Source: a plasmid. From it: a DNA stretch of 64,000 bases. Within the stretch, counting starts at the first letter, position 1, and each line of letters starts with the position of its first letter. Positions 3,273 through 50,383 of this stretch are shown in pieces. The notes under the pieces were generated by a model. The model saw only the letters and a program-made list of their open reading frames with translations, searched no databases and was not told where the DNA came from. A program made the translations under genes and the position numbers. The stretch is from the sequence record NZ_CP013482.1. One strand, given 5' to 3'.

Positions 3273-3940
3273 ATCACTCCACTTACGATCGAAGCCATAC
3301 GCACAGGATCGCTTTCGACCATTTTTTTAACGGCACTCAAACTCGAAACTCCAATCAGTTCCTGAATCAGCTTTAGGCTCCGCCCTTCCCTATGAAGGCG
3401 AACCGCAAAGGTGCGGCGCGCTGCGCTTGCGTTGCCATTAGCGATGCCCGCCTGGTGGTGCAAACGGCGGTAGATCTCAGTCAGCGACTCACACGAATAG
3501 CTGACCACGCCATTTGGACTCACGCGCTTGGTGAAGGTAAAGGGCGCCCCGTCGCTGGCCAAAAAGAGTGGGCTCTGCGGATCGAGCCCACGATACGCTG
3601 CACGTAGAATCGTTACGCCTTGACGTGTCTCCTTTCGGTGAGCGAGATAGGCGTCAATGACCTCGCGGACTTTCGGACTGGAGAAGAACAGCGGCCTTGC
3701 TTTCCCATTGAAAGCGATCTCAGCCCGAACGGTTGAATGCACCCTGACTTCACCATTCTCGAGAAGGTAGTCCTCTACGGTCAGCTTGGCTGTTTCGTTG
3801 GGTGCGAGCCCGGTCCCGTACGCGATGAGCAGCAACGCGACGTCGCGCTCCTTGGCATGGCCAGTGACAGCGGCGACCTTTCGCGCGTGCCGAATCTGAT
3901 GTTCTTCAATAACGGCGGCTTTTGCCATCCTGTAATGCAC
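3269..3940 (-). CDS. Tyrosine-type site-specific recombinase, catalytic domain only
   Basis: Integrase-family R..HxxR..Y layout (GHAKERDVALLL, TFAVRLHREG, C-terminal Tyr region). Confidence 0.65.
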   Translation of the reverse strand: MHYRMAKAAVIEEHQIRHARKVAAVTGHAKERDVALLLIAYGTGLAPNETAKLTVEDYLLENGEVRVHSTVRAEIAFNGKARPLFFSSPKVREVIDAYLAHRKETRQGVTILRAAYRGLDPQSPLFLASDGAPFTFTKRVSPNGVVSYSCESLTEIYRRLHHQAGIANGNASAARRTFAVRLHREGRSLKLIQELIGVSSLSAVKKMVESDPVRMASIVSGVI

Positions 3941-4096: not shown

Positions 4097-7000
4097 TTAC
4101 ATCTTAATCCCTCGTGCTTTCTTAACCCCCTGGTTGTTTTCTTGCTGACGCTCGGCAACCGCGCGCTCAATGACTGGTCGCAACTGACGTCGCACTCCAT
4201 CGCGGCCTGCCTCGCTTCGCATAGCGAGATCGTTCCAATCGGTGAATTTCTTCATCCCGTCGATCGCACGCCGCTGCTCCGTCGAAAGATTGGTTTTAAC
4301 GTCATCCAGCGTTTTTCCGCTCATAAGGACGTAACCGTCTTCCGCATCCAGCCGACGTTTGTGTTCACGCCATGACTCGGGTGTCACTGGCGGAATCCCT
4401 TCGGGGTACTTCGCCTCTGCGTCAGGGAAGATCGGGAACAATACGGTCCCGCCTACTTCTTCGGCTGCGGCCAACGCCTTTTCTCTGCCAGGGTTCTTGC
4501 CGACTGTCATCGTCACGTGTCGATCGTCGTCGCCGGCGAATAAAATTGGCGTGTCGGGAAACTTGGCTTTCAGCGCCTTAGCGACGGGTGCGAGGTTGCC
4601 AGCGTCAAACGCTGAGATCGATTGAACACCCAGACCCGCAAGCTCCCTGTCTACGGTGTCCATCGTCGCGTAGCCCTCGCCTATCACGAACGCTTTCGCT
4701 TTCGCCAGGGATGCGTAACCGTTTAGCGCGTGAAAGCAGCCCTCCTTTCTCGAATCCGATACGAACAGCTTCTCGCCCTTCGGATTAATCGACTGCATCG
4801 TCCATACCTTGCCATCTACGTCGTACGCGGGGACATAGGTTGTCCCGCTGGAGTCTTTCAAGACAAATTCACGCGCAAGCGCGCCTTTTGCTTCCAAGTA
4901 CGGCGTGGCCGTCGTTATCGGTGTCAGCTTGCCAATTCGCTCTGAGACCTTCGACGCTGTCAGCTCGTAAGCCGCTTGGCGCTCGGCCTCAAATTCTTTT
5001 CGCCGTTGTTCGGCCTCTGCCAAGACCGCAGCCAACTCAGCGCCATCAAAGCTATAACCCTTCGCCTTCCATTTGGCCTGCGCTCCGGTACGATTGTTCA
5101 TCGCGAATCCTGCCGGCCGCGTTCCCTCAAGGTGGCCGACATAGAAAATCGAGCGGTCTGCGGATCCAGGCTTATCGTCCGTGGCACGCACCCTGTGCTT
5201 CTTCCCATCCATCAAAGGGTGGAACCCCTTGATTTTCGGGTCGTACTCGGACAAATCGGCGTCCATGCTGCGGAGAAAGTCCGAAAACTCCTCCCGAGGA
5301 TCCTTCGCCGGCCCCTGCTCAAGCGGCACATTTTCTGGCTTCCACCGCGCGAGCTTCGATACGTCAGCCCCAGAGCCGACGTACCAGGAACCGGCCCGCT
5401 TATCCCACTTCGCGCCGGCCGCACGAGCCTCCTCGCGGTCGTCATACGGCACAGCCAGGTAGACGCGATGGTTTTGGTCTGGCGTGCGAGAAGGCTGTTG
5501 CGATGGTTGCTGCGCGGCACCTTCGGCTGCTCCTGCGGCTGGAATCCACTTGGAAAACGCATTAGCGTCAACGCCAGGGGGCACGTACCACGATGACGCG
5601 CCTCTGTCCCACTTGGCTCCCAGCGCCTTCGCTTCGTTCTTCTGTTTGTACGGTACGTCCAGGTACGTCAACCCTTCGCGTTGGGGAGTAGCGTCGGGCG
5701 TAGGTACGTCGCCATCACTCAGGCTCGCTATGGCCTGTGCCTCCTGTGCTTCACGCACGAAACCCGGAATCTTGCCCACACGGTCGGCCAGCATCTGCGC
5801 TTCGTCCTGAGATGCCACATCCGCGATCCAGGTGTGCGTGCCGTCAGAGTCCTGGGCATAGACGCCCCAAAATTCCGGCGCGTCACCCTCGCCAGCCGCC
5901 CTTACGAAGCGCTCACCATCGTCTTCAACTTCGACGCAGCCTTGCACCTGCAATCGGCCGGTCCAACCCGCCGGCAACGCTACACCAATGCTGTCCTTGG
6001 AGACGGTCTCAAAATCGGCGTCTGCAAGCTGGCCGGCGTCGAACTGCTGATACGCTCCAGCAACTTTGCGCAGCGCATCCTCGCTGATGTTCACATCGCC
6101 ATCAAACGCCTTCACGATCTCCTCCTTGTCAGGGTCAATGCCCATCATCTGCACGCCTTGTTTCGGCGACACTTCTTCAACCGGCTCCTGCCCTGACGTC
6201 AAATCTTGAGCGATCTCTTGCTTCTGCTCCAACCCCAGGATGTATTCCTGGATTTTCTCGGCATCGGCTGCTGCGCGGAAAATCTCCATCGAATCGTCTC
6301 GCAAGACCTTTATCCACGACTTCACATACGCGGCGTGCTGCCCCGGATCGTAGCCGATGCCCAACTCATCGCCCAGGATCATGCTCGCGATTTCGGCGCG
6401 CAACTCCTCTTTGGCGTATCCCTCGCTGCCGAACGGATGCGCGAGATCCCGGCCCAAGCGCGACTCATGCCCCGTCCAGTGCCCCAATTCATGCAATGCG
6501 GTCGCGTAATACCCGGCCGGTTCAGCAAACCGCGACTTATCTGGCATGTGAATGTCGTCACTGGACGGCCTGTAGAACGCGCCATTGCCTCCGTGATGAA
6601 TCCGGGCGCCGGATGCTTTCAAGACCCGCTCGGCCCGCTGTAGGGCCGGAGAATCGCCCTCATGATCGCCCCCGAGGCTGGGCACCTTCGTCACGCGGTC
6701 CATCTCGGGCATTCCGTCGATCTGTTCCCCATTGAACACGACCGCTGTGAAAACGCGCGGCCGTTCAAGCTTCACCTGCACCTTGACTGGCTCGCCGGCT
6801 TGGTCGCGAACGATTTCGCCTTTTGCGTCACGTTTGACTTCTTCGTCCGAGAACTTCCAATACTGGATCGGCGTACCGCGCTCCCCGCGACGGACTTGCG
6901 CACCGACCGACGTAGCCTGCTTGTACGTAAGCCATCGCGTATCGCTTCGCCCTTGAGCCATCAAGAACATCGCGTTGATACCTCGATAGCGCTTTCCGGT

Positions 7001-21059: not shown

Positions 21060-22135
21060 TACACAAGCTCCATTTTCTTAAACACATAATCAATCATCGC
21101 GCGCATTTCCCTGGTTGCCACCCGCGCTGCGGTCTTCTTCACATGCCAGACTGGCATTTGATCACCCACGGCTTCCGCGATGCTGTCGCGCAGACCGATC
21201 GCAACAGGGGCCACAAGGTCAGGATAGGCATTCTTTACTTGGGCCAAGTTATCCAGGTGGCGTGGCTTCCGGCTATCGATCTTGTTCGGGATCATCCCGA
21301 TGAATTCAAGCCCAGGGTTGTAGTCCATAAGGTTGTGGATGACCGTCAGCAACTTTGCGATGCCCTGCAAGCTGTAGGCTTCCATTTCCAGGGGGCAAAA
21401 CACATAATCACTCGATACAAGCACCGCACTCAGAATGACGCCAAGAGAGGGCGGGGTGTCGATCACCGCAACGTCGACATAATCGCCCAGCGCCTCCATA
21501 TTCGCCCGGAAATTCCCCATTGCCTCCGCCTGATCCATCTTCTCTACGTCGGCCAACGCGTCGTCAGCAGCGATCAGTGACAGACCAGTGTTATCCCGCT
21601 CGTCAAAATAGGAGCGCAAGTCTTCAGGAGTTCCAGTGAATAGGGCACTGGCCGGATAGCCACTGTCGCGACTGGAGAGTGTCCAGCTCGCGCTACCTTG
21701 GGTATCGCAGTCGATTACGGCCGCACGCACGCCCATCTCTTCCAGAGCGAACGCAATATGAACTGTCTGCGATGTCTTTCCCTGCCCCCCCTTCTGGATT
21801 GCGCCAGCAATAGCCTTCAGCCGCGTGTTTCCGATTTTTTTTCCGCGTCGCGCGCCCACTTCTTCACGATGAACGCTTGCCGTACCGGCAAGATTGCCGT
21901 TACTCGCTCGAACCCTTGAGGCAGATCGACCTTTTTGTGCGCTTCCCACACCCGATTTACCGCCTGCGACACGGCTCCGCGAGTGAGGTTTAGCTCCTTC
22001 ACGAACGTCGCTTGCTGCTGTCCGTTCACCAGCACTGCCCGAGCTATGTCGAGCGTTTGCTGTCCCACGTCCAGCCCGCGAGTTGCCTTCACGAACTGCG
22101 CTTCCGTCAATGCCTTCTTCATGATTTCCACCCAT
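21059..22135 (-). CDS. incC: IncC (ParA-family partition ATPase, long form)
   Basis: Deviant Walker A KGGQGKTS; start ATG with GGAGAGAG RBS; ORF extends to 22183. Confidence 0.85.
   Translation of the reverse strand: MGGNHEEGIDGSAVREGNSRAGRGTANARHSSGSAGERTAASDVREGAKPHSRSRVAGGKSGVGSAQKGRSASRVRASNGNLAGTASVHREEVGARRGKKIGNTRLKAIAGAIQKGGQGKTSQTVHIAFALEEMGVRAAVIDCDTQGSASWTLSSRDSGYPASALFTGTPEDLRSYFDERDNTGLSLIAADDALADVEKMDQAEAMGNFRANMEALGDYVDVAVIDTPPSLGVILSAVLVSSDYVFCPLEMEAYSLQGIAKLLTVIHNLMDYNPGLEFIGMIPNKIDSRKPRHLDNLAQVKNAYPDLVAPVAIGLRDSIAEAVGDQMPVWHVKKTAARVATREMRAMIDYVFKKMELV
21817..22122 (-). CDS. korA: KorA global repressor, nested in the incC 5' region in another frame
   Basis: MKKALTEAQF..GQQT..LTRGAVSQAV..AILPVRQAFIVKKW matches recalled RP4 KorA. 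Confidence 0.9.
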   Translation of the reverse strand: MKKALTEAQFVKATRGLDVGQQTLDIARAVLVNGQQQATFVKELNLTRGAVSQAVNRVWEAHKKVDLPQGFERVTAILPVRQAFIVKKWARDAEKKSETRG

Positions 22136-22189
22136 AAAACACTCTCTCCGCGTCAAGGGTTCAACAAGCGGTGTCAGCCGCAACCATGA

Positions 22190-22245
22190 AACATAGTTTA
22201 GCTAAACTTCGATATGCCGTCAACACTTTAGCCGCTAAAATTCTT
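22190..22245 (-). promoter_or_regulatory. korA promoter: -35 TTGACG, 17 bp spacer, -10 TAAACT overlapped by OA GTTTAGCTAAAC (22196..22207); OB TTTAGCCGCTAAA (22227..22239) just upstream of -35
   Basis: Same operator layout as recalled RK2 korAp. Confidence 0.8.
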
Positions 22246-22252
22246 ATGCTGG

Positions 22253-22276
22253 CAAAAAAAACCCGGCAAGGCCGGG
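22253..22276 (-). terminator. Intrinsic terminator ending the kle-like operon upstream of korAp
   Basis: cccggc aag gccggg hairpin followed by a U8 run on the minus transcript. Confidence 0.6.
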
Positions 22277-22318
22277 TCTATCATACGCCAGTGATTGACG
22301 CATATTGAGGCGCTTCAT

Positions 22319-22678
22319 CTAAACGCCCTTTGGTCTAAAACAGGTAACGAAGTAGGTCAACGCAGCGAGTACAGCGAAGTGCAGCAGGAACGTGAGGCCC
22401 GCGTGAACGCCTGGCGTTTCCCAATGCCAGAGCATCCTAAAAAACTGAAATGCAACATCGAGAGACAGAAGCCATTTAACCGGTCTCCAAAACAGTGCGA
22501 GCGTTACCCATAGCGCCTTGACTATCGCCAACAACACGGGAGTCAGGCCGACGCGGGTCGTCTTCGCACCCTTTCCTGGCGTAAAGACAGCCGAGGGCGG
22601 GGGCAACTCAACAGTCTTCCCCTCGGAACGCTCAACGGTCGGGGGGGTGCCCCCCGGAAACTTGATGACATTCGACAT
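22319..22678 (-). CDS. Kle-region membrane protein (KleE-like position)
   Basis: Internal start MSNVIKF with GAGGG RBS; two TM helices. Confidence 0.45.
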   Translation of the reverse strand: MSNVIKFPGGTPPTVERSEGKTVELPPPSAVFTPGKGAKTTRVGLTPVLLAIVKALWVTLALFWRPVKWLLSLDVAFQFFRMLWHWETPGVHAGLTFLLHFAVLAALTYFVTCFRPKGV

Positions 22679-22793
22679 GACTTGACCCTCTACACAATTG
22701 CAGGTTGAATAGTACCCGCAAGCAATCTCCGCGTAGCTTGTGGTTCGATGTGTCAGCGTCGGCCGGACGCCCTGGCTATCCGGGGCGTCATCT

Positions 22794-22991
22794 CTACTTC
22801 TTCGGACGCACGTCCCCCGCACTCAACATCGCTGCCACAAGGCGCATTTCTTCTGGCGGCGTCATGCATCTTGCACACACGTCGGCCAGCTCCTTTGCAT
22901 CCGCTCGAAACACCGCAGACGCACTATACAGCGTGGGATAACTCATCCCACAGCGACGGCAGACAGTTGCCGTCACAGAAAACATTTTCAT
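22794..22991 (-). CDS. Small Cys-containing protein, first gene after promoter/operator copy 1
   Basis: 65 aa; CxxC..C..C; ATG preceded by the conserved leader. Confidence 0.45.
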   Translation of the reverse strand: MKMFSVTATVCRRCGMSYPTLYSASAVFRADAKELADVCARCMTPPEEMRLVAAMLSAGDVRPKK

Positions 22992-23041
22992 CGGACTTTC
23001 CCGGTCGTTGACCTGAGCGACTAGCTCGGCCTTACGCTTAC

Positions 23042-23070
23042 AGCATAGGTCTTAAAGACCTATTTTGCAA
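23042..23070 (-). promoter_or_regulatory. Sigma70-like promoter (-35 TTGCAA, 17 bp, -10 TATGCT) with the 19-bp palindrome ATAGGTCTTAAAGACCTAT between the hexamers
   Basis: Read on the minus strand; a second copy lies at 24606..24635. Confidence 0.6.
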
Positions 23071-23075
23071 GCGAA

Positions 23076-23087
23076 ATTTAGCTAAAC
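23076..23087. promoter_or_regulatory. KorA-operator-like site ATTTAGCTAAAC overlapping the stop codon of the 23082..23351 gene
   Basis: 11/12 match to GTTTAGCTAAAC. Confidence 0.5.
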
Positions 23088-23351
23088 ATCGTTTGCCGTC
23101 ATGCCTTTCTGCCAGATTCTGGCGATACCCGCAAAGTCACAGAAGATCGCCCAAGCGGCATACGGGATCGGTGCGTCCTCACCAATCCAGCGTCTCACCT
23201 GGCGCCCATCCGCAATACCAACGAGTTTCGCTGCCTGTGCGCCGCTCAACCCGGTTCTTCTCAGGATCTCGCGTACCTCCTCACCATTTGGCCGCAACCA
23301 TTCGTCGGAAAACGGGGTGAGGCAACCTTCTCGGATTTTGCTTTGCTCCAT
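23082..23351 (-). CDS. HTH DNA-binding protein (candidate KorC-like repressor)
   Basis: 89 aa; GLSGAQAAKLVGIADGRQVRRW helix-turn-helix. Confidence 0.45.
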   Translation of the reverse strand: MEQSKIREGCLTPFSDEWLRPNGEEVREILRRTGLSGAQAAKLVGIADGRQVRRWIGEDAPIPYAAWAIFCDFAGIARIWQKGMTANDV

Positions 23352-23660
23352 TGCGTCCCTTGCAAGTTATCTCGATGGCAAGATTTTACCCGCCCCGATC
23401 AACGGTTACGCCGGTTCCAGCTCGTCAAAGCCGTACAACGTTTGAATGCACTTGGGATCTGAGTAAACGACGCAACGACCCAGGCGGCTTGTGTGGTAAG
23501 TCGCAGGCTTGTCATCGTAGGCCCACACTGAGTGATCGTTGACTTTAGCGACCACTACAACCCTTCCGGTCCTTGTGCCAAGGCGTGAGCTGACGACCTT
23601 GCAACGCTGGTGCACAAATAGGGGAGGTGTGTCATGCCCTGCCCGGACGATCTCCGGTGA

Positions 23661-24428
23661 TTACCGATTGACCGGTGCTGCTACTGCCTCTCCCGAGCCG
23701 TCTTCCTCCACCAGCTTCGCAAGAGTCTCATAGGACCATTTCTTGACTTGCCACGCCTTGTGCGCCGGCAAGATCACGTCGACGATTTCGTACCCGTCTG
23801 GTGCGGTTTCCGGGATACGCCGCGCCGGCGGACGCAATCCCTTTAGCCAGTCGGGGAGTGCTTGGCGAGCCAAGCGATCCCGGTATTCCACCGCGATTAA
23901 TAACGCCCCCCGCTTTTCGGCCCGGATGGTGCGAATAGCCGATCGAGCAGCCTCGTCAACAGTCATGCCATAGTGGCAATTGAGAAAATGCGACCTATAC
24001 CCAGTTTCTGAAATGAACTCAGCGTCGAGGTCAACCGCCAGGAACTCAAAGTGCATGGAGGTCCGAAACTTATGTGCGCAGTACTGCACGATGACTCTCA
24101 TACCGTCGACCTGAATCAAGAAAGCCCCACGCTGCCCCCAGTGAGGAATAGCCCCCGGTGCTGCTGCACAGTGTGCGACCATCAGGTTTCCAGGTGACGA
24201 CGCGTTAGCGTAGCTTCCAAAATTCGTGCCGCCGTTCAGCTTCCACACGCACGCGTCATATCTACGTCCGGCGAGCGCCGCGCCGTCCTGATCGGCTCGC
24301 ATGATGGCGTCATCAAACGCTTGAGAGAATTCTTTCCCTGCCTCAAACAGCGATGCCGTGTCAGTAGGCAACTGCTCCGAGAGCGATTGCAGCTCAACTG
24401 ACTCGTTGTCGGTAACGCGCTTTGCCAT
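23661..24428 (-). CDS. Hypothetical protein, 255 aa (klc-region cargo)
   Basis: Long clean ORF downstream of promoter/operator copy 2. Confidence 0.5.
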   Translation of the reverse strand: MAKRVTDNESVELQSLSEQLPTDTASLFEAGKEFSQAFDDAIMRADQDGAALAGRRYDACVWKLNGGTNFGSYANASSPGNLMVAHCAAAPGAIPHWGQRGAFLIQVDGMRVIVQYCAHKFRTSMHFEFLAVDLDAEFISETGYRSHFLNCHYGMTVDEAARSAIRTIRAEKRGALLIAVEYRDRLARQALPDWLKGLRPPARRIPETAPDGYEIVDVILPAHKAWQVKKWSYETLAKLVEEDGSGEAVAAPVNR

Positions 24429-24448
24429 AGTCTTCTCCTCGCCCAGGT

Positions 24449-24556
24449 CTTATGCGTCCTGCAAGGTGCGATAACCCGAGTGGCCCAGGTGCTCTGCAAG
24501 GCAGGCCATATGTTCGGTGTGAGGCACGACGTGCGCGAGGATTACGGTATTGCTCA
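24449..24556 (-). CDS. 35-aa leader peptide ORF (MSNTVILAHVVPHTEHMACLAEHLGHSGYRTLQDA)
   Basis: GGAGAA RBS inside a conserved 5' leader shared with the 22794..22991 operon. Confidence 0.3.
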
Positions 24557-24605
24557 TCAGATTTCTCCGGTGGTCGACCTGAGCGAAAAGCCCGGCCATG
24601 TATAG

Positions 24606-24635
24606 AGCATAGGTCTTAAAGACCTATGCTGTCAA
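24606..24635 (-). promoter_or_regulatory. Second copy of the palindromic-operator promoter (-35 TTGACA, -10 TATGCT, palindrome 24609..24627)
   Basis: Identical 19-bp palindrome and the same leader element TCGCTCAGGTCRAC. Confidence 0.6.
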
Positions 24636-25023
24636 ACGCTGTTTACAGCCATTTTGGCGGCTTGGTTCCGAAGTGTGAGGGGGTGGCACCCCCTCTTTGG
24701 AGTAAAACCAGCCCTGGGCTTTCTGTGGTGTGTGAAGGCTACGAACTTGCCGATAGCAATTACTTTTGGGGAGGCCAACGGCTTGCCGTTGGCATAGCGA
24801 AGCGGTCGAAGCCCGTAGGGCGCTGTGTCATTGGGTGAGGCCGAAGGCCGAGGGCGAAGCCCTAGCGGGGATGGGAGAGCCGCTTGCGGCTCGGGTGGGT
24901 TCGAGAAGGGGCGCAGCGCCCTTCGGCGCGTTAAAGAATATAAAGGTTATTAACCGCGCGCGCGTTACGGCTGTGGAAACCGCTTATAACCCAATGATTG
25001 TGCGCAAGGTTTTTCCTGCGCTT

Positions 25024-25340
25024 GTGGGGAATATGCCGTGACTTCGTGGGGTGATATGCCGTGGCTATCCACAGGAAGACGTGGCTGATATGCCGGGACT
25101 GTCCACAGCGTGGCTGATATGCCGACAGAACCAAGGCTGCCCTGGGGGCGTGGGCAATATGCCGTGTCACTGATTCATCGAAAATAGACGGCCTGGTCGG
25201 CCGAAATTCACGCCTCTTTGGAATGCGAGGAGGCTGAGATCGATTATTGAGGGGGTGGGTGTGGGTGATATGCCGTCACGAGCGTTGGGGGCGGTGACTC
25301 CCTTTCGCGTTGCCGACTTCGCGCGTGGGTAATATGCCGC
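25024..25340. repeat. oriV: oriV iteron array: 7 direct repeats of GTGGSYRATATGCCG with DnaA-box-like TATCCACA (25066..25073) and TGTCCACA (25101..25108)
   Basis: Iterons start at 25025, 25046, 25081, 25110, 25150, 25261, 25325; all the same orientation; adjacent to the 3' end of trfA. Confidence 0.8.
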
Positions 25341-25394
25341 GACAGAATGAAAAACGCCCCGTTTTGCGGGGCGTTTGCGGGAGCGGGTAGAGGC

Positions 25395-26492
25395 TCAGGT
25401 GAACGACGCTATTTTTTTGAGCTTTCGAGTGTCGCGGCCACTGCGCGGAGCCGGTTTCACGCCCTCGGTCACAAGCTTCCGGACGCTCTTACGGAAGAAC
25501 CGAACTTCGTCCAGTGGAGTCAACACAAACGTGTAATCCGGGAGAATGCTGTCAGAGTGAATGTCTTTGAGCATGCGACGAAACTCCCGCATCGACGCTC
25601 GGCTGCCGGTCTTCTCGTATAACAGCGGCAGGTTGATCATCCAAGTCGATTGATGCCCGCAATGCTTCCTGGCCAACTCGTACAAGCGACGTTCCAACGG
25701 CTTGCGCAATCGAAAATAGTCGCGATGGATGGTCAATACCTCATGATTCTGAATGGCCTCAAAGTACCAGTCAGACAGAGTAACCTCAATTGCCACGTTC
25801 CGGTCGTCGTTGGGAGCCTTTTCGACACCTTCCCAGGATTCTATTAGGCCGAACGTCTTTTTCTGACGTTTGCCCCCGGTCTTAATGTCGGTCTTGATCA
25901 TCGTACCTTTCAGCCGATCCAAGGCGCTTTCGAGCTGGCTGTACTGACTCCCTCCGGTTTCGCGGTTCGTGGCGACAAGGTATTCATAGACGATGAATCG
26001 CACCCGTCTGTTCTTGGCATCCGGCCGCTTCGTGTTCAGCGCCTCTGTCATCTGTGACGCCAGGAAAATGAGCACGTCCTTATCGAAAACGGTCGCACGA
26101 CCTTTAACGCTCGGAATAACCTCAATGTTTCGGGAGTTATCTTTGCTGCTCCAGCGCCATGTACTGAGATCCGGCCGCGTGGACAGCGAGAAGATCGGCG
26201 CTTCCATGCTCGGCGCGTCGTCCTTCATCGCGTAATCCAGCATGTCGCAAAGGAAAAAATCGCGCTCTACGTTGCGGATAGGCAGCAACTTTGAACGACG
26301 GCGGTACGTTGCTATTTCAATCTTGCCGTCTTCGGGGGAGGCGGGCGAGGGCGACTCAACAGTGACCAGTTCGCGCTCTGCCTCGGAGAAAAGGGCCAAA
26401 TCGCCTTGGCGCTGCCGTGCTTCCTCGGCGCGCTGTTCCATAAGGCGTGAAACTCGCGAATAGTCTGCGCTGCTTTTCGTCGTGTCAGACAT
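25395..26492 (-). CDS. trfA: Replication initiator TrfA-family Rep
   Basis: Second gene of the ssb-trfA operon beside oriV; start MSDTTK with GGAG RBS; TrfA-like DFFLCDMLDYAMKDD block. Confidence 0.7.
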   Translation of the reverse strand: MSDTTKSSADYSRVSRLMEQRAEEARQRQGDLALFSEAERELVTVESPSPASPEDGKIEIATYRRRSKLLPIRNVERDFFLCDMLDYAMKDDAPSMEAPIFSLSTRPDLSTWRWSSKDNSRNIEVIPSVKGRATVFDKDVLIFLASQMTEALNTKRPDAKNRRVRFIVYEYLVATNRETGGSQYSQLESALDRLKGTMIKTDIKTGGKRQKKTFGLIESWEGVEKAPNDDRNVAIEVTLSDWYFEAIQNHEVLTIHRDYFRLRKPLERRLYELARKHCGHQSTWMINLPLLYEKTGSRASMREFRRMLKDIHSDSILPDYTFVLTPLDEVRFFRKSVRKLVTEGVKPAPRSGRDTRKLKKIASFT

Positions 26493-26573
26493 GCTTACAC
26501 TCCACAAAGTACGGTGCATCTAACGGGGGCGAAGTGAGATCATCCCGCCTCGCCCACACATAACAGGATCGAA

Positions 26574-26954: not shown

Positions 26955-27005
26955 AAAGTTTAGCTATACATTGGCAAGGAGTCAAGGAATTTTAGCCGCT
27001 AAAGT
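26955..27005. promoter_or_regulatory. Divergent trfA/trbA promoter region: trfAp -35 TTGACT / -10 TAAACT overlapped by OA-like GTTTAGCTATAC (26958..26969); OB 26991..27003
   Basis: Same architecture as korAp. Confidence 0.75.
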
Positions 27006-27040: not shown

Positions 27041-27406
27041 GTGTATAACGTGATCTTCTTTACCAACGTCCTTCGACTGATTGACGAGCTTGGTCTAACC
27101 AAGCAAGGACTCTCCGAAAAATCGGGGGTGTCCATGTCATTTCTATCTGATCTGACGAACGGTAAAGCTAACCCCTCCTTAGAAGTGATGGCTAAGATTG
27201 CCGCCGCGTTAGACACGCCATTGCCGATGCTTCTGGAGTCAACGGATCTCGACACCGCGACTCTTGAAATCATTGCTAACGGCAAGGCACCGAAAAGTGT
27301 TCCCGATGGCTACGAACGCGTATGTGCCGTTCTTCCAGAGCGCCAGGCTTTCATAGTTAAAAAGTGGGGCGAAGCAACGCGAAAGAAGCTACGCACTGAC
27401 GCGTAG
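27041..27406 (+). CDS. trbA: TrbA repressor (HTH with KorA-like C-terminus)
   Basis: C-terminus AVLPERQAFIVKKW parallels KorA AILPVRQAFIVKKW; GTG start. Confidence 0.8.
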   Translation: MYNVIFFTNVLRLIDELGLTKQGLSEKSGVSMSFLSDLTNGKANPSLEVMAKIAAALDTPLPMLLESTDLDTATLEIIANGKAPKSVPDGYERVCAVLPERQAFIVKKWGEATRKKLRTDA

Positions 27407-50162: not shown

Positions 50163-50383
50163 GTTATCTCTGTGTCAGCTTTGGTTATTTTTGATTCCGC
50201 TTGCCGGTTTATCTGCCTTGGTGGAAGCAATATCGCCGATGCGATTCCGGAAAGTCTCTCGGTCATTTTGGGTATACCTAATTTAACCATACGAATTTTA
50301 GTAGCCCAAATATACAAGAGGCAACTCAAAAAAGCCATCTATTTTTGGACCACCTAAAAGAGCCTATTTTTCACTTGCGTCAT

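What the first reader, a model, noticed from the sequence alone, without database searches (positions are those of the whole stretch)
23042..24635. New 19-bp palindromic operator shared by two consensus promoters in the klc/kle-like region
ATAGGTCTTAAAGACCTAT sits exactly between -35 (TTGCAA or TTGACA) and -10 (TATGCT) in two leftward promoters, at 23042..23070 and 24606..24635. Each is followed by a conserved leader (TCGCTCAGGTCRACSACCGG) and then a small first ORF (65 aa and 35 aa). This mirrors the RK2 logic of KorC-repressed klcA/kleA promoters but with a different operator sequence. The 89-aa HTH protein at 23082..23351 is a candidate cognate repressor. The shared leader may be a cis-regulatory RNA element.
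Basis: seen in the sequence. Interest (0 to 1): 0.6.

Follow-up and report, generated by a model that had tools for sequence, protein, structure and literature searches.

The report
KorC operators in klc/kle promoters
The two palindromes are the binding sites of the well-known plasmid repressor KorC, in a sequence variant that other plasmids also carry, so the finding is real but largely ordinary; the one less familiar part is a conserved RNA hairpin at the start of the regulated messages.

Summary
ATAGGTCTTAAAGACCTAT occurs exactly twice (23045-63 and 24609-27). Each copy fills the spacer of a leftward sigma-70-type promoter and is followed by a shared leader and a start codon.

The operator is not new in kind. 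The 89-aa HTH protein (23351..23082) is a KorC homologue, 58% identical to annotated IncP-1 KorC. It sits in the canonical position: origin iterons, klcB-korC, kleB-kleE, then korA-incC-korB.

Across 40 sites from about 20 plasmids the half-site is TAGG-N-C-[T/A]-[T/A]. TAGG and C are essentially invariant, and position 5 is fully degenerate. The window's sequence differs from IncP-1 beta TAGGGCAT only at the variable positions 5 and 7. The same 17-mer lies at klc/kle-type promoters of pXOOYN24, pYKAM101, pKF707, pDS1 and Burkholderia plasmids.

The leader is family-wide and is present in IncP-1, IncU-type and IncL/M plasmids. It folds as a hairpin at the predicted 5' end of the mRNA, followed by a small hairpin that contains the Shine-Dalgarno sequence. 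The first hairpin has covariation support: 95-98% of cells paired, compensatory changes, and 0 of 500 shuffles as good. Rfam has no such family.

Verdict: a new member of a known system, of low to moderate interest.

The parts
24610..24626 (.). O_C-type KorC operator 1. This is the 17-bp core TAGGTCTTWAAGACCTA; the window-specific 19-bp palindrome spans 24609-24627.
   Evidence: Exact match. Same sequence and same promoter register as in pXOOYN24, pYKAM101, pKF707 and pDS1. Fits the family half-site matrix.
23046..23062 (.). O_C-type KorC operator 2. The 17-bp core; the 19-bp palindrome spans 23045-23063.
24606..24635 (-). Promoter P1: TTGACA, 18-nt spacer, TATGCT. It drives orf35, klcB and korC. 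No KorA or KorB operator is nearby.
   Evidence: Sequence. Generic scan, 10 of 12. Homologous position to klcA-type promoters of relatives. Operator searches.
23042..23070 (-). Promoter P2: TTGCAA, 17-nt spacer, TATGCT. It drives the kleB-like gene and kleE.
   Evidence: Sequence. It matches 8 of 12 and is not called by the scan. Homologous position to the kleA/kleB promoters of relatives.
23077..23086 (.). KorA-operator-like palindrome TTTAGCTAAA, 6 bp upstream of the -35 of P2.
   Evidence: The same motif sits just upstream of the -35 of klc/kle promoters in R772, pLBC54, pMNCI062, pXOOYN24 and others. Further copies lie at the korA promoter (22197-22206) and, with one mismatch, at the ssb/rep promoter (26959-26968).
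24555..24601 (-). Leader 1, the 5' UTR of the P1 transcript. Hairpin GGCCGGGC-UUUUC-GCUC(A)GGUC at 24597..24576, Shine-Dalgarno GGAG at 24568..24565, AUG at 24557.
   Evidence: Covariance-model hit, 57.2 bits. Fold. Covariation.
22989..23035 (-). Leader 2, the 5' UTR of the P2 transcript. Hairpin GGCCGAGC-UAGUC-GCUC(A)GGUC at 23031..23010, AUG at 22991.
   Evidence: Covariance-model hit, 53.9 bits. Fold. The G-to-A change relative to leader 1 turns a G.U pair into an A-U pair.
23082..23351 (-). korC, 89 aa: the HTH repressor predicted to bind both operators. It is the last gene of the P1 operon, which implies autoregulation.
   Evidence: tblastn: 58% identity over 89% of its length to annotated 'transcriptional repressor KorC' of many IncP-1 plasmids, and 68% to pXOOYN24. 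Alignment of 27 homologues. No terminator-like site lies between P1 and korC.
24450..24557 (-). Orphan 35-aa first ORF of the P1 operon. It occupies the place that klcA holds in relatives.
   Evidence: No Pfam or NCBIfam hit and no tblastn hit in the fetched loci. The start codon is at the family-conserved distance from the Shine-Dalgarno sequence.
23661..24428 (-). klcB, N-terminal 255 aa. It ends at an in-frame TAA.
   Evidence: 44-49% identity to KlcB of IncP-1 plasmids. Pfam KlcB_N and KlcB_3rd on record. KorA/TrbA-type C-terminal motif.
23406..23615 (-). klcB C-terminal piece (69 aa), in the same frame as the 255-aa ORF.
   Evidence: Matches the C-terminus of KlcB in R772, pMNCI062, pMCBF6 and others. 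Frame checked from the coordinates.
22794..22991 (-). kleB-like gene (65 aa, DUF2688), the first gene of the P2 operon.
   Evidence: Pfam PF10892, E = 3.3e-8. Matches the annotated kleB of pMNCI062, pLBC54 and pMCBF6.
22319..22678 (-). kleE (119 aa), the second gene of the P2 operon. A terminator-like hairpin follows at 22279..22259.
   Evidence: Pfam KleE, E = 2.6e-31. Gene call. Terminator scan.

Best explanation
The two palindromes are KorC operators (O_C) of a plasmid that carries an IncP-1-type central control and kle/klc region.

A dimer of the 89-aa HTH repressor KorC binds the 17-bp core TAGGTCTTWAAGACCTA. The core fills the spacer and overlaps the first two bases of the -10 hexamer, so bound KorC should keep RNA polymerase off the promoter.

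P1 drives orf35, klcB and korC, so korC represses itself. P2 drives a kleB-like gene and kleE, and it also has a KorA operator just upstream of its -35. After transfer into a cell without KorC, both promoters would fire until KorC accumulates.

Both transcripts begin with the same family-wide leader. It has a hairpin of 8 bp with one bulged base at or within a few nucleotides of the 5' end, about 6 unpaired nucleotides, and a weak 3-4 bp hairpin that holds part of the Shine-Dalgarno sequence directly before the AUG. I infer that the 5' hairpin protects the message from 5'-end-dependent decay, and that the whole leader is a host-independent translation-start module.

Shown here: sequence, position, homology, conservation, and covariation of the hairpin. 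Inferred: binding, repression, transcription start site, and the role of the hairpin.
For: KorC identity and gene order:
- The 89-aa protein is 58% identical (E = 3e-21) to annotated KorC of many IncP-1 plasmids, and 63-70% identical to KorC-position proteins of pXOOYN24, pYKAM101, Caballeronia and Burkholderia contigs.
- The gene order matches IncP-1: iterons, then klcB, korC, kleB, kleE, korA, incC, korB.

Operator family:
- In 40 sites (80 half-sites) that lie between -35 and -10 of klc/kle-type promoters, positions 1-4 (TAGG) and 6 (C) are the same in 77-80 of 80.
- Position 5 is T 23, G 27, A 23, C 7. Position 7 is T 36, A 40.
- The window's half-site TAGGTCTT fits every invariant position (source).
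- Plasmids with a single KorC mix half-sites: TAGGGCTT/TAGGTCTT in L008, and three different operators in pYKAM101.
- The identical 17-mer lies at the klcA promoters of pXOOYN24 and pDS1, and also in pYKAM101, pKF707 and a B. contaminans plasmid.

Literature:
- KorC represses klcA, kleA and kleC in RP4/RK2 (PMC7314908, PMC12365149).
- A KorC consensus site lies between -35 and -10 of the orf24-korC promoter of pOXA-48 (PMC12365149). I found that site as TAGGACAAAATGTCCTA in L026.
- KorC is a global repressor in RA3 (PMC7414963).

Leader:
- 32 leaders: 97.6% of cells paired, 5 of 8 pairs with compensatory changes, 0 of 500 shuffles as good, and 21-57% paired when the partners are slid.
- 39 leaders: 95.4% paired, 0 of 500 shuffles.
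- G.U is the common pair at one position (35 of 39) and frequent at another. This fits the sense RNA and not the complementary strand.
- The covariance model recovered copies not used to build it, with different stem sequences, each again downstream of an operator-like palindrome. Four of the five folded show the same architecture.
Against: - No experiment exists for this plasmid; binding and repression rest on homology.
- No Pfam or NCBIfam model recognises the 89-aa protein at threshold, and no KorC structure is solved. The recognition helix and its base contacts are therefore assumed.
- P2 is a poor match to the sigma-70 consensus (8 of 12).
- P1 has no KorA or KorB operator, unlike the klcA promoters of IncP-1 relatives.
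- The transcription start is not mapped, so '5'-terminal' is a prediction from the -10 position.
- Folding energies of single leaders are only modestly better than shuffles (z = -0.8 to -2.5).
- The leaders are related by descent, so the shuffle control overstates significance. I count only about 5-6 independent compensatory events.
- The second small hairpin varies too little to be tested.
Confidence: 0.87

Rival explanations
1. The T-type palindrome and this KorC form an orthogonal repressor-operator pair. Changes at operator positions 5 and 7, together with changes in the recognition helix, have switched specificity. On this reading the plasmid's KorC does not cross-regulate classical IncP-1 O_C sites, and IncP-1 KorC does not regulate these.
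For: - Both window sites are the fully symmetric T5/T7 form.
- The nearest KorC clade and pKF707 share the helix motif RQ(V/I)RRW and mostly ..CTT half-sites. IncP-1, IncL/M and IncU-type proteins have RT(V/I/F)RRW with ..CA(A/T) half-sites.
Against: - Single plasmids with one KorC carry mixed operators: TCTT, GCTT and ACAT in pYKAM101, and GCTT/TCTT hybrids in L005 and L008.
- Position 5 is fully degenerate family-wide.
- The helix-to-operator rule is broken in both directions: the L009 clade has RQ with GCAA, and L020 has RT with CCTT.
- The number of independent lineages is small.
Confidence: 0.25
2. The palindromes are bound by a regulator other than the 89-aa protein, for example a different plasmid HTH protein or a host factor. 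Alternatively they are structural or recombination sites and not operators.
For: There is no direct binding evidence. The window encodes other DNA-binding proteins, including KorA, KorB and a second KorA/TrbA-like protein at 27041-27406.
Against: - KorA-type and KorB-type operators have their own distinct, separately conserved palindromes in the window.
- In every replicon examined the TAGG-N9-CCTA palindrome occurred together with a KorC homologue, including replicons that lack the IncP-1 backbone, such as IncL/M, IncU-type and Burkholderia plasmids.
- The site lies in the promoter spacer upstream of the predicted start, so it is not transcribed and cannot be a terminator.
Confidence: 0.05
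3. The conserved leader is a true regulatory RNA element, the target of a trans-acting protein or small RNA that controls translation of klc/kle messages, and not a passive stabiliser and ribosome-binding module.
For: - Sequence as well as structure is conserved over very distant plasmids. The unpaired ACCGGAG and the UCCG before the AUG are nearly invariant.
- The Shine-Dalgarno sequence is partly paired in a small hairpin.
- No Rfam family covers it.
Against: - No candidate partner was found.
- There is a single GGA, and it is predicted to lie in a stem, which is not the usual CsrA-type arrangement.
- No run of U follows the hairpin, so it is not an attenuator.
- The small hairpin is weak (3-4 bp).
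- High sequence conservation is also expected if the promoter-operator-leader unit spreads as a cassette by duplication and gene conversion. Copies within one plasmid resemble each other most.
Confidence: 0.2

Closest known systems
KorC / O_C regulon of IncP-1 plasmids (RK2/RP4, R751, R772): klcA, kleA and kleC promoters
   Same: - A homologous repressor, 58% identical.
- A 17-bp TAGG-N9-CCTA palindrome in the same register between -35 and -10.
- The targets are klc and kle operons.
- korC lies at the end of the klc operon.
- A KorA operator sits just upstream of the -35 at the kle promoter.
- The same 5' leader is present.
   Different: - Half-site TAGGTCTT instead of TAGGGCAT or TAGGACAT, which means changes at positions 5 and 7.
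- klcA and kleA are missing, and klcB is split by a stop codon.
- P1 has no KorA or KorB operator.
- The replicon uses an RPA-family initiator, not TrfA.
- The RK2 sequence itself and the original papers could not be retrieved, so R772, pMCBF6, pLBC54 and pMNCI062 served as the IncP-1 references.
Plasmids pXOOYN24 (Xanthomonas oryzae), pDS1, pYKAM101 and pKF707
   Same: The identical 17-mer TAGGTCTTAAAGACCTA lies between -35 and -10 of klcA-type promoters, is followed by the same leader, and is encoded next to a KorC homologue.
   Different: - Their KorC proteins are 41-68% identical to this one.
- They keep klcA.
- pYKAM101 also uses two other operator variants.
- I found no published description of these sites in the library available to me.
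KorC of RA3 (IncU) and of pOXA-48 / pCTX-M3 (IncL/M)
   Same: - A KorC homologue (36-40% identical) with a TAGG-N-CA-W3-TG-N-CCTA palindrome in the promoter spacer.
- Autoregulation is proposed for pOXA-48 (PMC12365149), and a global repressor role is reported in RA3 (PMC7414963).
- The leader hairpin is present in the IncU-type and IncL/M loci.
   Different: - Position 5 is C in the IncU type and A in IncL/M.
- The regulated genes differ.
- In RA3, KorC also controls replication and transfer promoters.
5'-terminal stabilising stem-loops of bacterial mRNAs, such as the ompA 5' UTR (from my own knowledge of the field)
   Same: A hairpin at or next to the 5' end, followed by an unpaired ribosome-binding region.
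   Different: There is no sequence relationship. The transcription start and any effect on stability are untested here.

Membership tests
KorC / O_C repressor-operator system (IncP-1 type) | The repressor is homologous to KorC. | tested here: met
   58% identity, 89% coverage and E = 3e-21 to annotated KorC in many IncP-1 records. It aligns over its full length with 26 homologues. No curated HMM hit exists.
KorC / O_C repressor-operator system (IncP-1 type) | A 17-bp inverted repeat of the TAGG-N-C-W-W / centre / W-W-G-N-CCTA type. | tested here: met
   Both sites match all invariant positions of an 80-half-site matrix.
KorC / O_C repressor-operator system (IncP-1 type) | The operator lies between the -35 and -10 hexamers. 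| tested here: met
   The register is the same as in R772, pMCBF6, pLBC54, pS171-1.3 and others.
KorC / O_C repressor-operator system (IncP-1 type) | The regulated operons are klc and kle, with korC inside the klc operon. | tested here: met
   klcB, the kleB-like gene and kleE, and korC as the last gene downstream of P1 with no terminator-like site between them. klcA and kleA themselves are absent.
KorC / O_C repressor-operator system (IncP-1 type) | Co-regulation by KorA through an O_A site next to the -35. | tested here: inconclusive
   TTTAGCTAAA is present 6 bp upstream of the -35 of P2. It is absent at P1.
KorC / O_C repressor-operator system (IncP-1 type) | The protein binds the palindrome and represses transcription. 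| not testable with these tools
   This needs a gel-shift or footprint assay and reporter fusions.
IncP-1 plasmid backbone | A TrfA initiator with an oriV of the IncP-1 type. | tested here: not met
   The Rep protein at 25395-26519 belongs to Pfam RPA (PF10134, E = 1.5e-83) and has no TrfA hit. Its best plasmid relatives are 'replication initiator protein A' of small beta- and alphaproteobacterial plasmids. The control region is IncP-1-like, but the plasmid should not be filed as IncP-1 on this evidence.
Described RNA family (Rfam 15) | The leader matches a curated covariance model. | tested here: not met
   No match at E <= 1 in 22000-25500.
5'-terminal stabiliser hairpin | A conserved stem with compensatory changes. 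| tested here: met
5'-terminal stabiliser hairpin | The hairpin lies within a few nucleotides of the transcript's 5' end and prolongs mRNA half-life. | not testable with these tools
   The hairpin begins 8-12 nt after the -10 hexamer. The start site and half-life are unmeasured.

The most novel reading that the evidence does not exclude
The promoter-operator-leader unit may be an ancient portable expression cassette shared by KorC regulons of IncP-1, IncU-type, IncL/M and unclassified Burkholderia, Xanthomonas and Pseudomonas plasmids. Its two-hairpin 5' UTR would be a so far uncatalogued cis-acting RNA motif that gives these early-expressed genes host-independent stability and translation, or that is the target of an unknown post-transcriptional regulator. 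Separately, the T5/T7 operator with an RQVRRW-type KorC could be a specificity variant orthogonal to classical IncP-1 KorC.
Probability: 0.3. Interest if true: 0.55.

Novelty: new member of a known kind. Interest (0 to 1): 0.3.

Why it matters
For annotation, the region can be labelled with confidence: two O_C operators, korC, a split klcB, a kleB-like gene and kleE. The KorC operator consensus can be stated more generally than the classical IncP-1 sequence, as TAGG-N-C-W-W around a central base. That helps to find KorC regulons in unclassified plasmids.

The plasmid shows that an IncP-1-type control region can be combined with a non-TrfA replicon.

The most useful by-product is the covariation-supported leader hairpin, which is shared by KorC-controlled promoters across several incompatibility groups and is absent from Rfam. 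It offers a small, testable question about how broad-host-range plasmids secure a burst of expression from these promoters after entering a new host. None of this changes current understanding of kil-kor regulation.

Tried and rejected
- **Curated models.** Pfam and NCBIfam gave no hit at threshold for the 89-aa protein, only weak HTH matches. A PDB sequence search found no KorC structure, only weak Aca1/AcrIF24-type HTH matches with E >= 0.002. No structural inference on base contacts was possible.
- **Rfam.** Nothing was found in 22000-25500.
- **Close DNA relatives.** Megablast of 22300-25300 against PLSDB found only an 85-bp match. The plasmid has no near relative there.
- **Original papers.** The RK2 papers (Thomas 1988 as PMC336771; a guessed id for Kornacki 1993) and RK2/RP4 records (BN000925, L27758) are not held. 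A text search for the operator sequence gave only irrelevant papers. The classical RK2 O_C sequence is therefore not quoted from a source, and I cannot exclude that the leader hairpin was noted in the 1988-1994 literature. A text search for it found nothing relevant.
- **A recognition code.** I looked for a simple code between the KorC helix (RQ versus RT) and operator position 7 (T versus A). It is suggestive but broken in both directions, so I dropped it as a claim.
- **The 35-aa ORF as a klcA or kleA remnant.** No similarity was detected.
- **The leader as attenuator or terminator.** Rejected, because no run of U follows the hairpin. A CsrA-type site is unlikely, because there is a single GGA and it is predicted in a stem.
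- **More leader or operator copies in the window.** None were found.
- **The 19-bp length.** The flanking A/T is not conserved in relatives, so the core is 17 bp. At P1 the symmetry extends to 25 bp, and at P2 an imperfect 22-nt-arm symmetry exists. Neither extension is seen in other plasmids.
Full report
**1. The observation**

The 19-mer ATAGGTCTTAAAGACCTAT occurs exactly twice in the 64-kb window, at 23045-23063 and 24609-24627. No further copy appears even with three mismatches allowed, and none is expected by chance.

On the minus strand each copy fills a promoter spacer:
- P1 is TTGACA (24635..24630), an 18-nt spacer, then TATGCT (24611..24606). It matches 10 of 12 consensus positions and is the only promoter-like site the generic scan calls in 22200-25000.
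- P2 is TTGCAA (23070..23065), a 17-nt spacer, then TATGCT (23047..23042). It matches 8 of 12 and falls below the scan threshold.
- In both, the last TA of the palindrome is the first TA of the -10 hexamer.

Downstream of each promoter lies a 44-nt stretch that is 80% identical between the two copies (22988-23031 and 24554-24597). It ends at an ATG. The first ORFs are 35 aa and 65 aa. The description is therefore correct, although 'consensus' is generous for P2.

**2. The neighbourhood**

Reading leftward, the order is as follows:
- Iterons (CGTGGCTGATATGCCG family, 25015-25288).
- P1, then the 35-aa ORF.
- A 255-aa ORF and a 69-aa ORF.
- The 89-aa HTH ORF.
- P2, then a 65-aa DUF2688 (KleB-like) ORF and KleE (Pfam E = 2.6e-31).
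- KorA (Pfam E = 2.2e-29), then IncC and KorB.

The 255-aa and 69-aa ORFs both match KlcB of IncP-1 plasmids, the N-terminal two thirds and the C-terminus respectively. They lie in one frame and are separated by a single TAA.

The 89-aa protein hits about 2,660 plasmid records by tblastn. Those from IncP-1 plasmids are annotated 'transcriptional repressor KorC' and are 58% identical over 89% of the length (E = 3e-21). The best hits are pXOOYN24 (68%) and pYKAM101 (63%). Contigs from Caballeronia, a Burkholderia metagenome-assembled genome and two metagenomes encode proteins that are 66-70% identical.

This is the canonical kilC/kilE arrangement with korC at the end of the klc operon.

**3. The palindrome in relatives**

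I collected promoter-operator-leader units from about 20 replicons:
- IncP-1 beta: R772.
- IncP-1 zeta: pMCBF6.
- Plasmids typed IncP in PLSDB: pLBC54, pMNCI062, pS171-1.3 and a Xanthomonas translucens plasmid.
- Plasmids with other or no replicon typing: pXOOYN24, pDS1, pYKAM101, pYKBG036 and pKF707.
- IncL/M plasmids, and IncU-type plasmids from Serratia and Proteus.
- Burkholderia plasmids and metagenome contigs.

In all of them a 17-bp palindrome sits in the same register between -35 and -10. Over 40 sites (80 half-sites), positions 1-4 (TAGG) and position 6 (C) are identical in 77-80 of 80. Position 5 is T 23, G 27, A 23, C 7. Position 7 is T 36, A 40. Position 8 is T or A.

The window's half-site TAGGTCTT fits every invariant position. 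It differs from the IncP-1 beta sites (TAGGGCAT, TAGGACAT) only at positions 5 and 7.

Plasmids with one KorC use mixed half-sites:
- pYKAM101 has TAGGTCTTAAAGACCTA, TAGGGCTTTAAGCCCTA and TAGGACATTAAGCCCTA.
- The contigs with the closest KorC proteins have GCTT/TCTT, TCTT/CCTT and GCCT/TCTT hybrids.

The identical 17-mer is found at the klcA promoters of pXOOYN24 and pDS1. It is also found in pYKAM101, in pKF707 (whose KorC is only 41% identical) and twice in a 164-kb Burkholderia contaminans plasmid.

The flanking A/T that makes the site 19 bp long is not conserved. The sequence is therefore an O_C variant inside the normal range of the family, and it is not unique to this plasmid.

**4. Literature**

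KorC represses the klcA, kleA and kleC promoters of RP4/RK2 (PMC7314908, PMC12365149). A KorC consensus site lies between the -35 and -10 of the orf24-korC promoter of pOXA-48, and KorC binding sites of several incompatibility groups were compared by Ludwiczak et al. 2013 (cited in PMC12365149). I found that pOXA-48-type site as TAGGACAAAATGTCCTA. KorC is a global repressor in RA3 (PMC7414963).

The original RK2 papers and an RK2/RP4 record were not available.

**5. Other operators**

The KorA-type palindrome TTTAGCTAAA lies 6 bp upstream of the -35 of P2 (23077-23086). Further copies lie at the korA promoter (22197-22206) and, with one mismatch, at the ssb/rep promoter (26959-26968). The klc/kle promoters of relatives have the same motif in the same place.

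Ten KorB-type sites (TTTAGCSGCTAAA) are spread over the window, and none lies at P1 or P2. P1 thus appears to depend on KorC alone.

**6. The leader**

The leader is not special to this plasmid. GGCCGGGC-loop-GCYCAGGTC, about 6 nt, ACCGGAG, about 8 nt, ATG follows the operator in nearly every unit collected.

- A MAFFT alignment of 32 leaders gives an 8-bp hairpin with one bulged base. In it, 97.6% of cells pair, 5 of 8 pairs show changes on both sides, and 0 of 500 shuffles reach the observed values. Only 21-57% pair when the partners are slid.
- With 39 leaders the figures are 95.4% paired and 0 of 500 shuffles.
- Examples of compensation: GGGC/GCYC becomes GGGU/ACUC in pS171-1.3, GAAA/UUUC in the L009 group, and AGA/UCU in L012. 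The outer G-C becomes A-U in L005 and L008.
- Within the window, G.U in leader 1 becomes A-U in leader 2.
- G.U is the usual pair at one position (35 of 39). This fits folding of the sense transcript and not of the other strand.
- A covariance model built from the alignment finds only the two copies in the window. It recovers copies not used to build it, with different stems, each after an operator-like palindrome. Four of the five folded show the same architecture.
- A second hairpin of 3-4 bp pairs CGGA of the Shine-Dalgarno region with the UCCG before the AUG. It hardly varies, so it cannot be tested.
- Rfam has no matching family.

Caveats: the sequences are related, so the shuffle control is lenient. 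I count about 5-6 independent compensatory events. Single-sequence z-scores are modest. The transcription start is not mapped.

**7. Mechanism**

The best-supported reading is as follows. A KorC dimer occupies the spacer and the -10 edge and excludes RNA polymerase. P1 makes korC self-repressing, and P2 is repressed by KorC and probably also by KorA. On entry into a cell without KorC both operons fire and are then shut down, as described for zygotic induction of klcA in RP4 (PMC7314908).

The leader most likely provides a protected 5' end and a fixed, host-independent ribosome-binding region. This last step is inference.

**8. Rivals**

- An orthogonal specificity variant is possible. It is weakened by mixed operators within single plasmids and by a helix-to-operator correlation that fails in both directions.
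- A different binding protein is unlikely. KorA and KorB have their own sites, and the TAGG-N9-CCTA palindrome was found together with a KorC homologue even in loci that lack the IncP-1 genes.
- A regulatory role for the leader, as opposed to a stabilising one, cannot be excluded.

**9. Novelty and score**

This is a new member of a known kind. The system, its logic and the operator family are established, and the exact sequence is in public plasmids.

Modest points of interest are the generalised operator consensus, the IncP-1-type control region on an RPA-type replicon, and the uncatalogued but covariation-supported leader hairpin. Interest is 0.3.

**10. Provenance**

The region is 100% identical to contig CEWL01000006.1 of assembly GCA_001049515.1 and to two read-archive assemblies. 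The same KorC is recorded on 11 contigs.

Noticed in passing
window 23406-24428 (-): klcB is split into a 255-aa ORF and a 69-aa ORF that lie in one reading frame and are separated by a single TAA (23663..23661). This is either a nonsense mutation or pseudogene, or a natural two-part KlcB. The stop is also present in the 100%-identical public contigs, which are probably the same plasmid.
   Followed up: partly
window 24450-24557 (-) and 22794-22991 (-): klcA (the antirestriction gene) and kleA, the usual first genes behind these promoters, are both absent. P1 is followed by an orphan 35-aa ORF with no detectable homologue, and P2 is followed directly by a kleB-like DUF2688 gene.
   Followed up: partly
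window 25015-26519: The replication initiator belongs to the RPA family (PF10134), not TrfA. Four to five iterons of the CGTGGCTGATATGCCG type lie at 25015-25288. Everything around it (korA-incC-korB, kle, klc, ssb, KorA and KorB operators) is IncP-1-like, so this is a hybrid backbone.
   Followed up: partly
window 10246, 15197, 17540, 17642, 19964, 22227, 26991, 27429, 35574, 39348: There are ten exact KorB-operator palindromes TTTAGCSGCTAAA across the window, against 0.03 expected. This indicates a full KorB global regulon. KorA-type TTTAGCTAAA lies at 22197 and 23077, and with one mismatch at 26959.
   Followed up: no
L020 (B. contaminans CP082810), about 3580-3701: A KorC homologue (50% identical) is present, but the equivalent promoter carries a clearly different palindrome, ATGCCTTTAAGGCAT, in two copies. 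It departs from the otherwise invariant TAGG, yet it is followed by the same leader hairpin. This is a better candidate for a real specificity switch than the window's site.
   Followed up: no
L025 (pKF707), 4151-4393 and 5001-5240: Two KorC paralogues are encoded close together. The plasmid has at least three T-type operators: two in L025, and a further BLAST match at record position 50294.
   Followed up: no
KorC alignment (window 23082-23351 and 26 homologues): The presumed recognition-helix motif is RQ(V/I)RRW in proteins mostly paired with ..CTT half-sites, and RT(V/I/F)RRW in proteins paired with ..CA(A/T) half-sites. There are two exceptions: the L009 clade and L020.
   Followed up: partly
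window 23032-23076 and 24603-24632: The symmetry extends beyond the 17-bp core in this plasmid only. At P1 it is AGCATAGGTCTT/AAGACCTATGCT (25 bp). At P2 it is an imperfect palindrome with 22-nt arms that mirrors the -35 region. The meaning is unknown, and it may simply reflect duplication of the cassette in inverted register.
   Followed up: no
window 27041-27406 (+): A 121-aa HTH protein has the KorA/TrbA-type C-terminal motif (…VLPERQAFIVKKW…) and lies next to a KorB operator and upstream of a TrbB/VirB11-like gene. It is probably TrbA.
   Followed up: no
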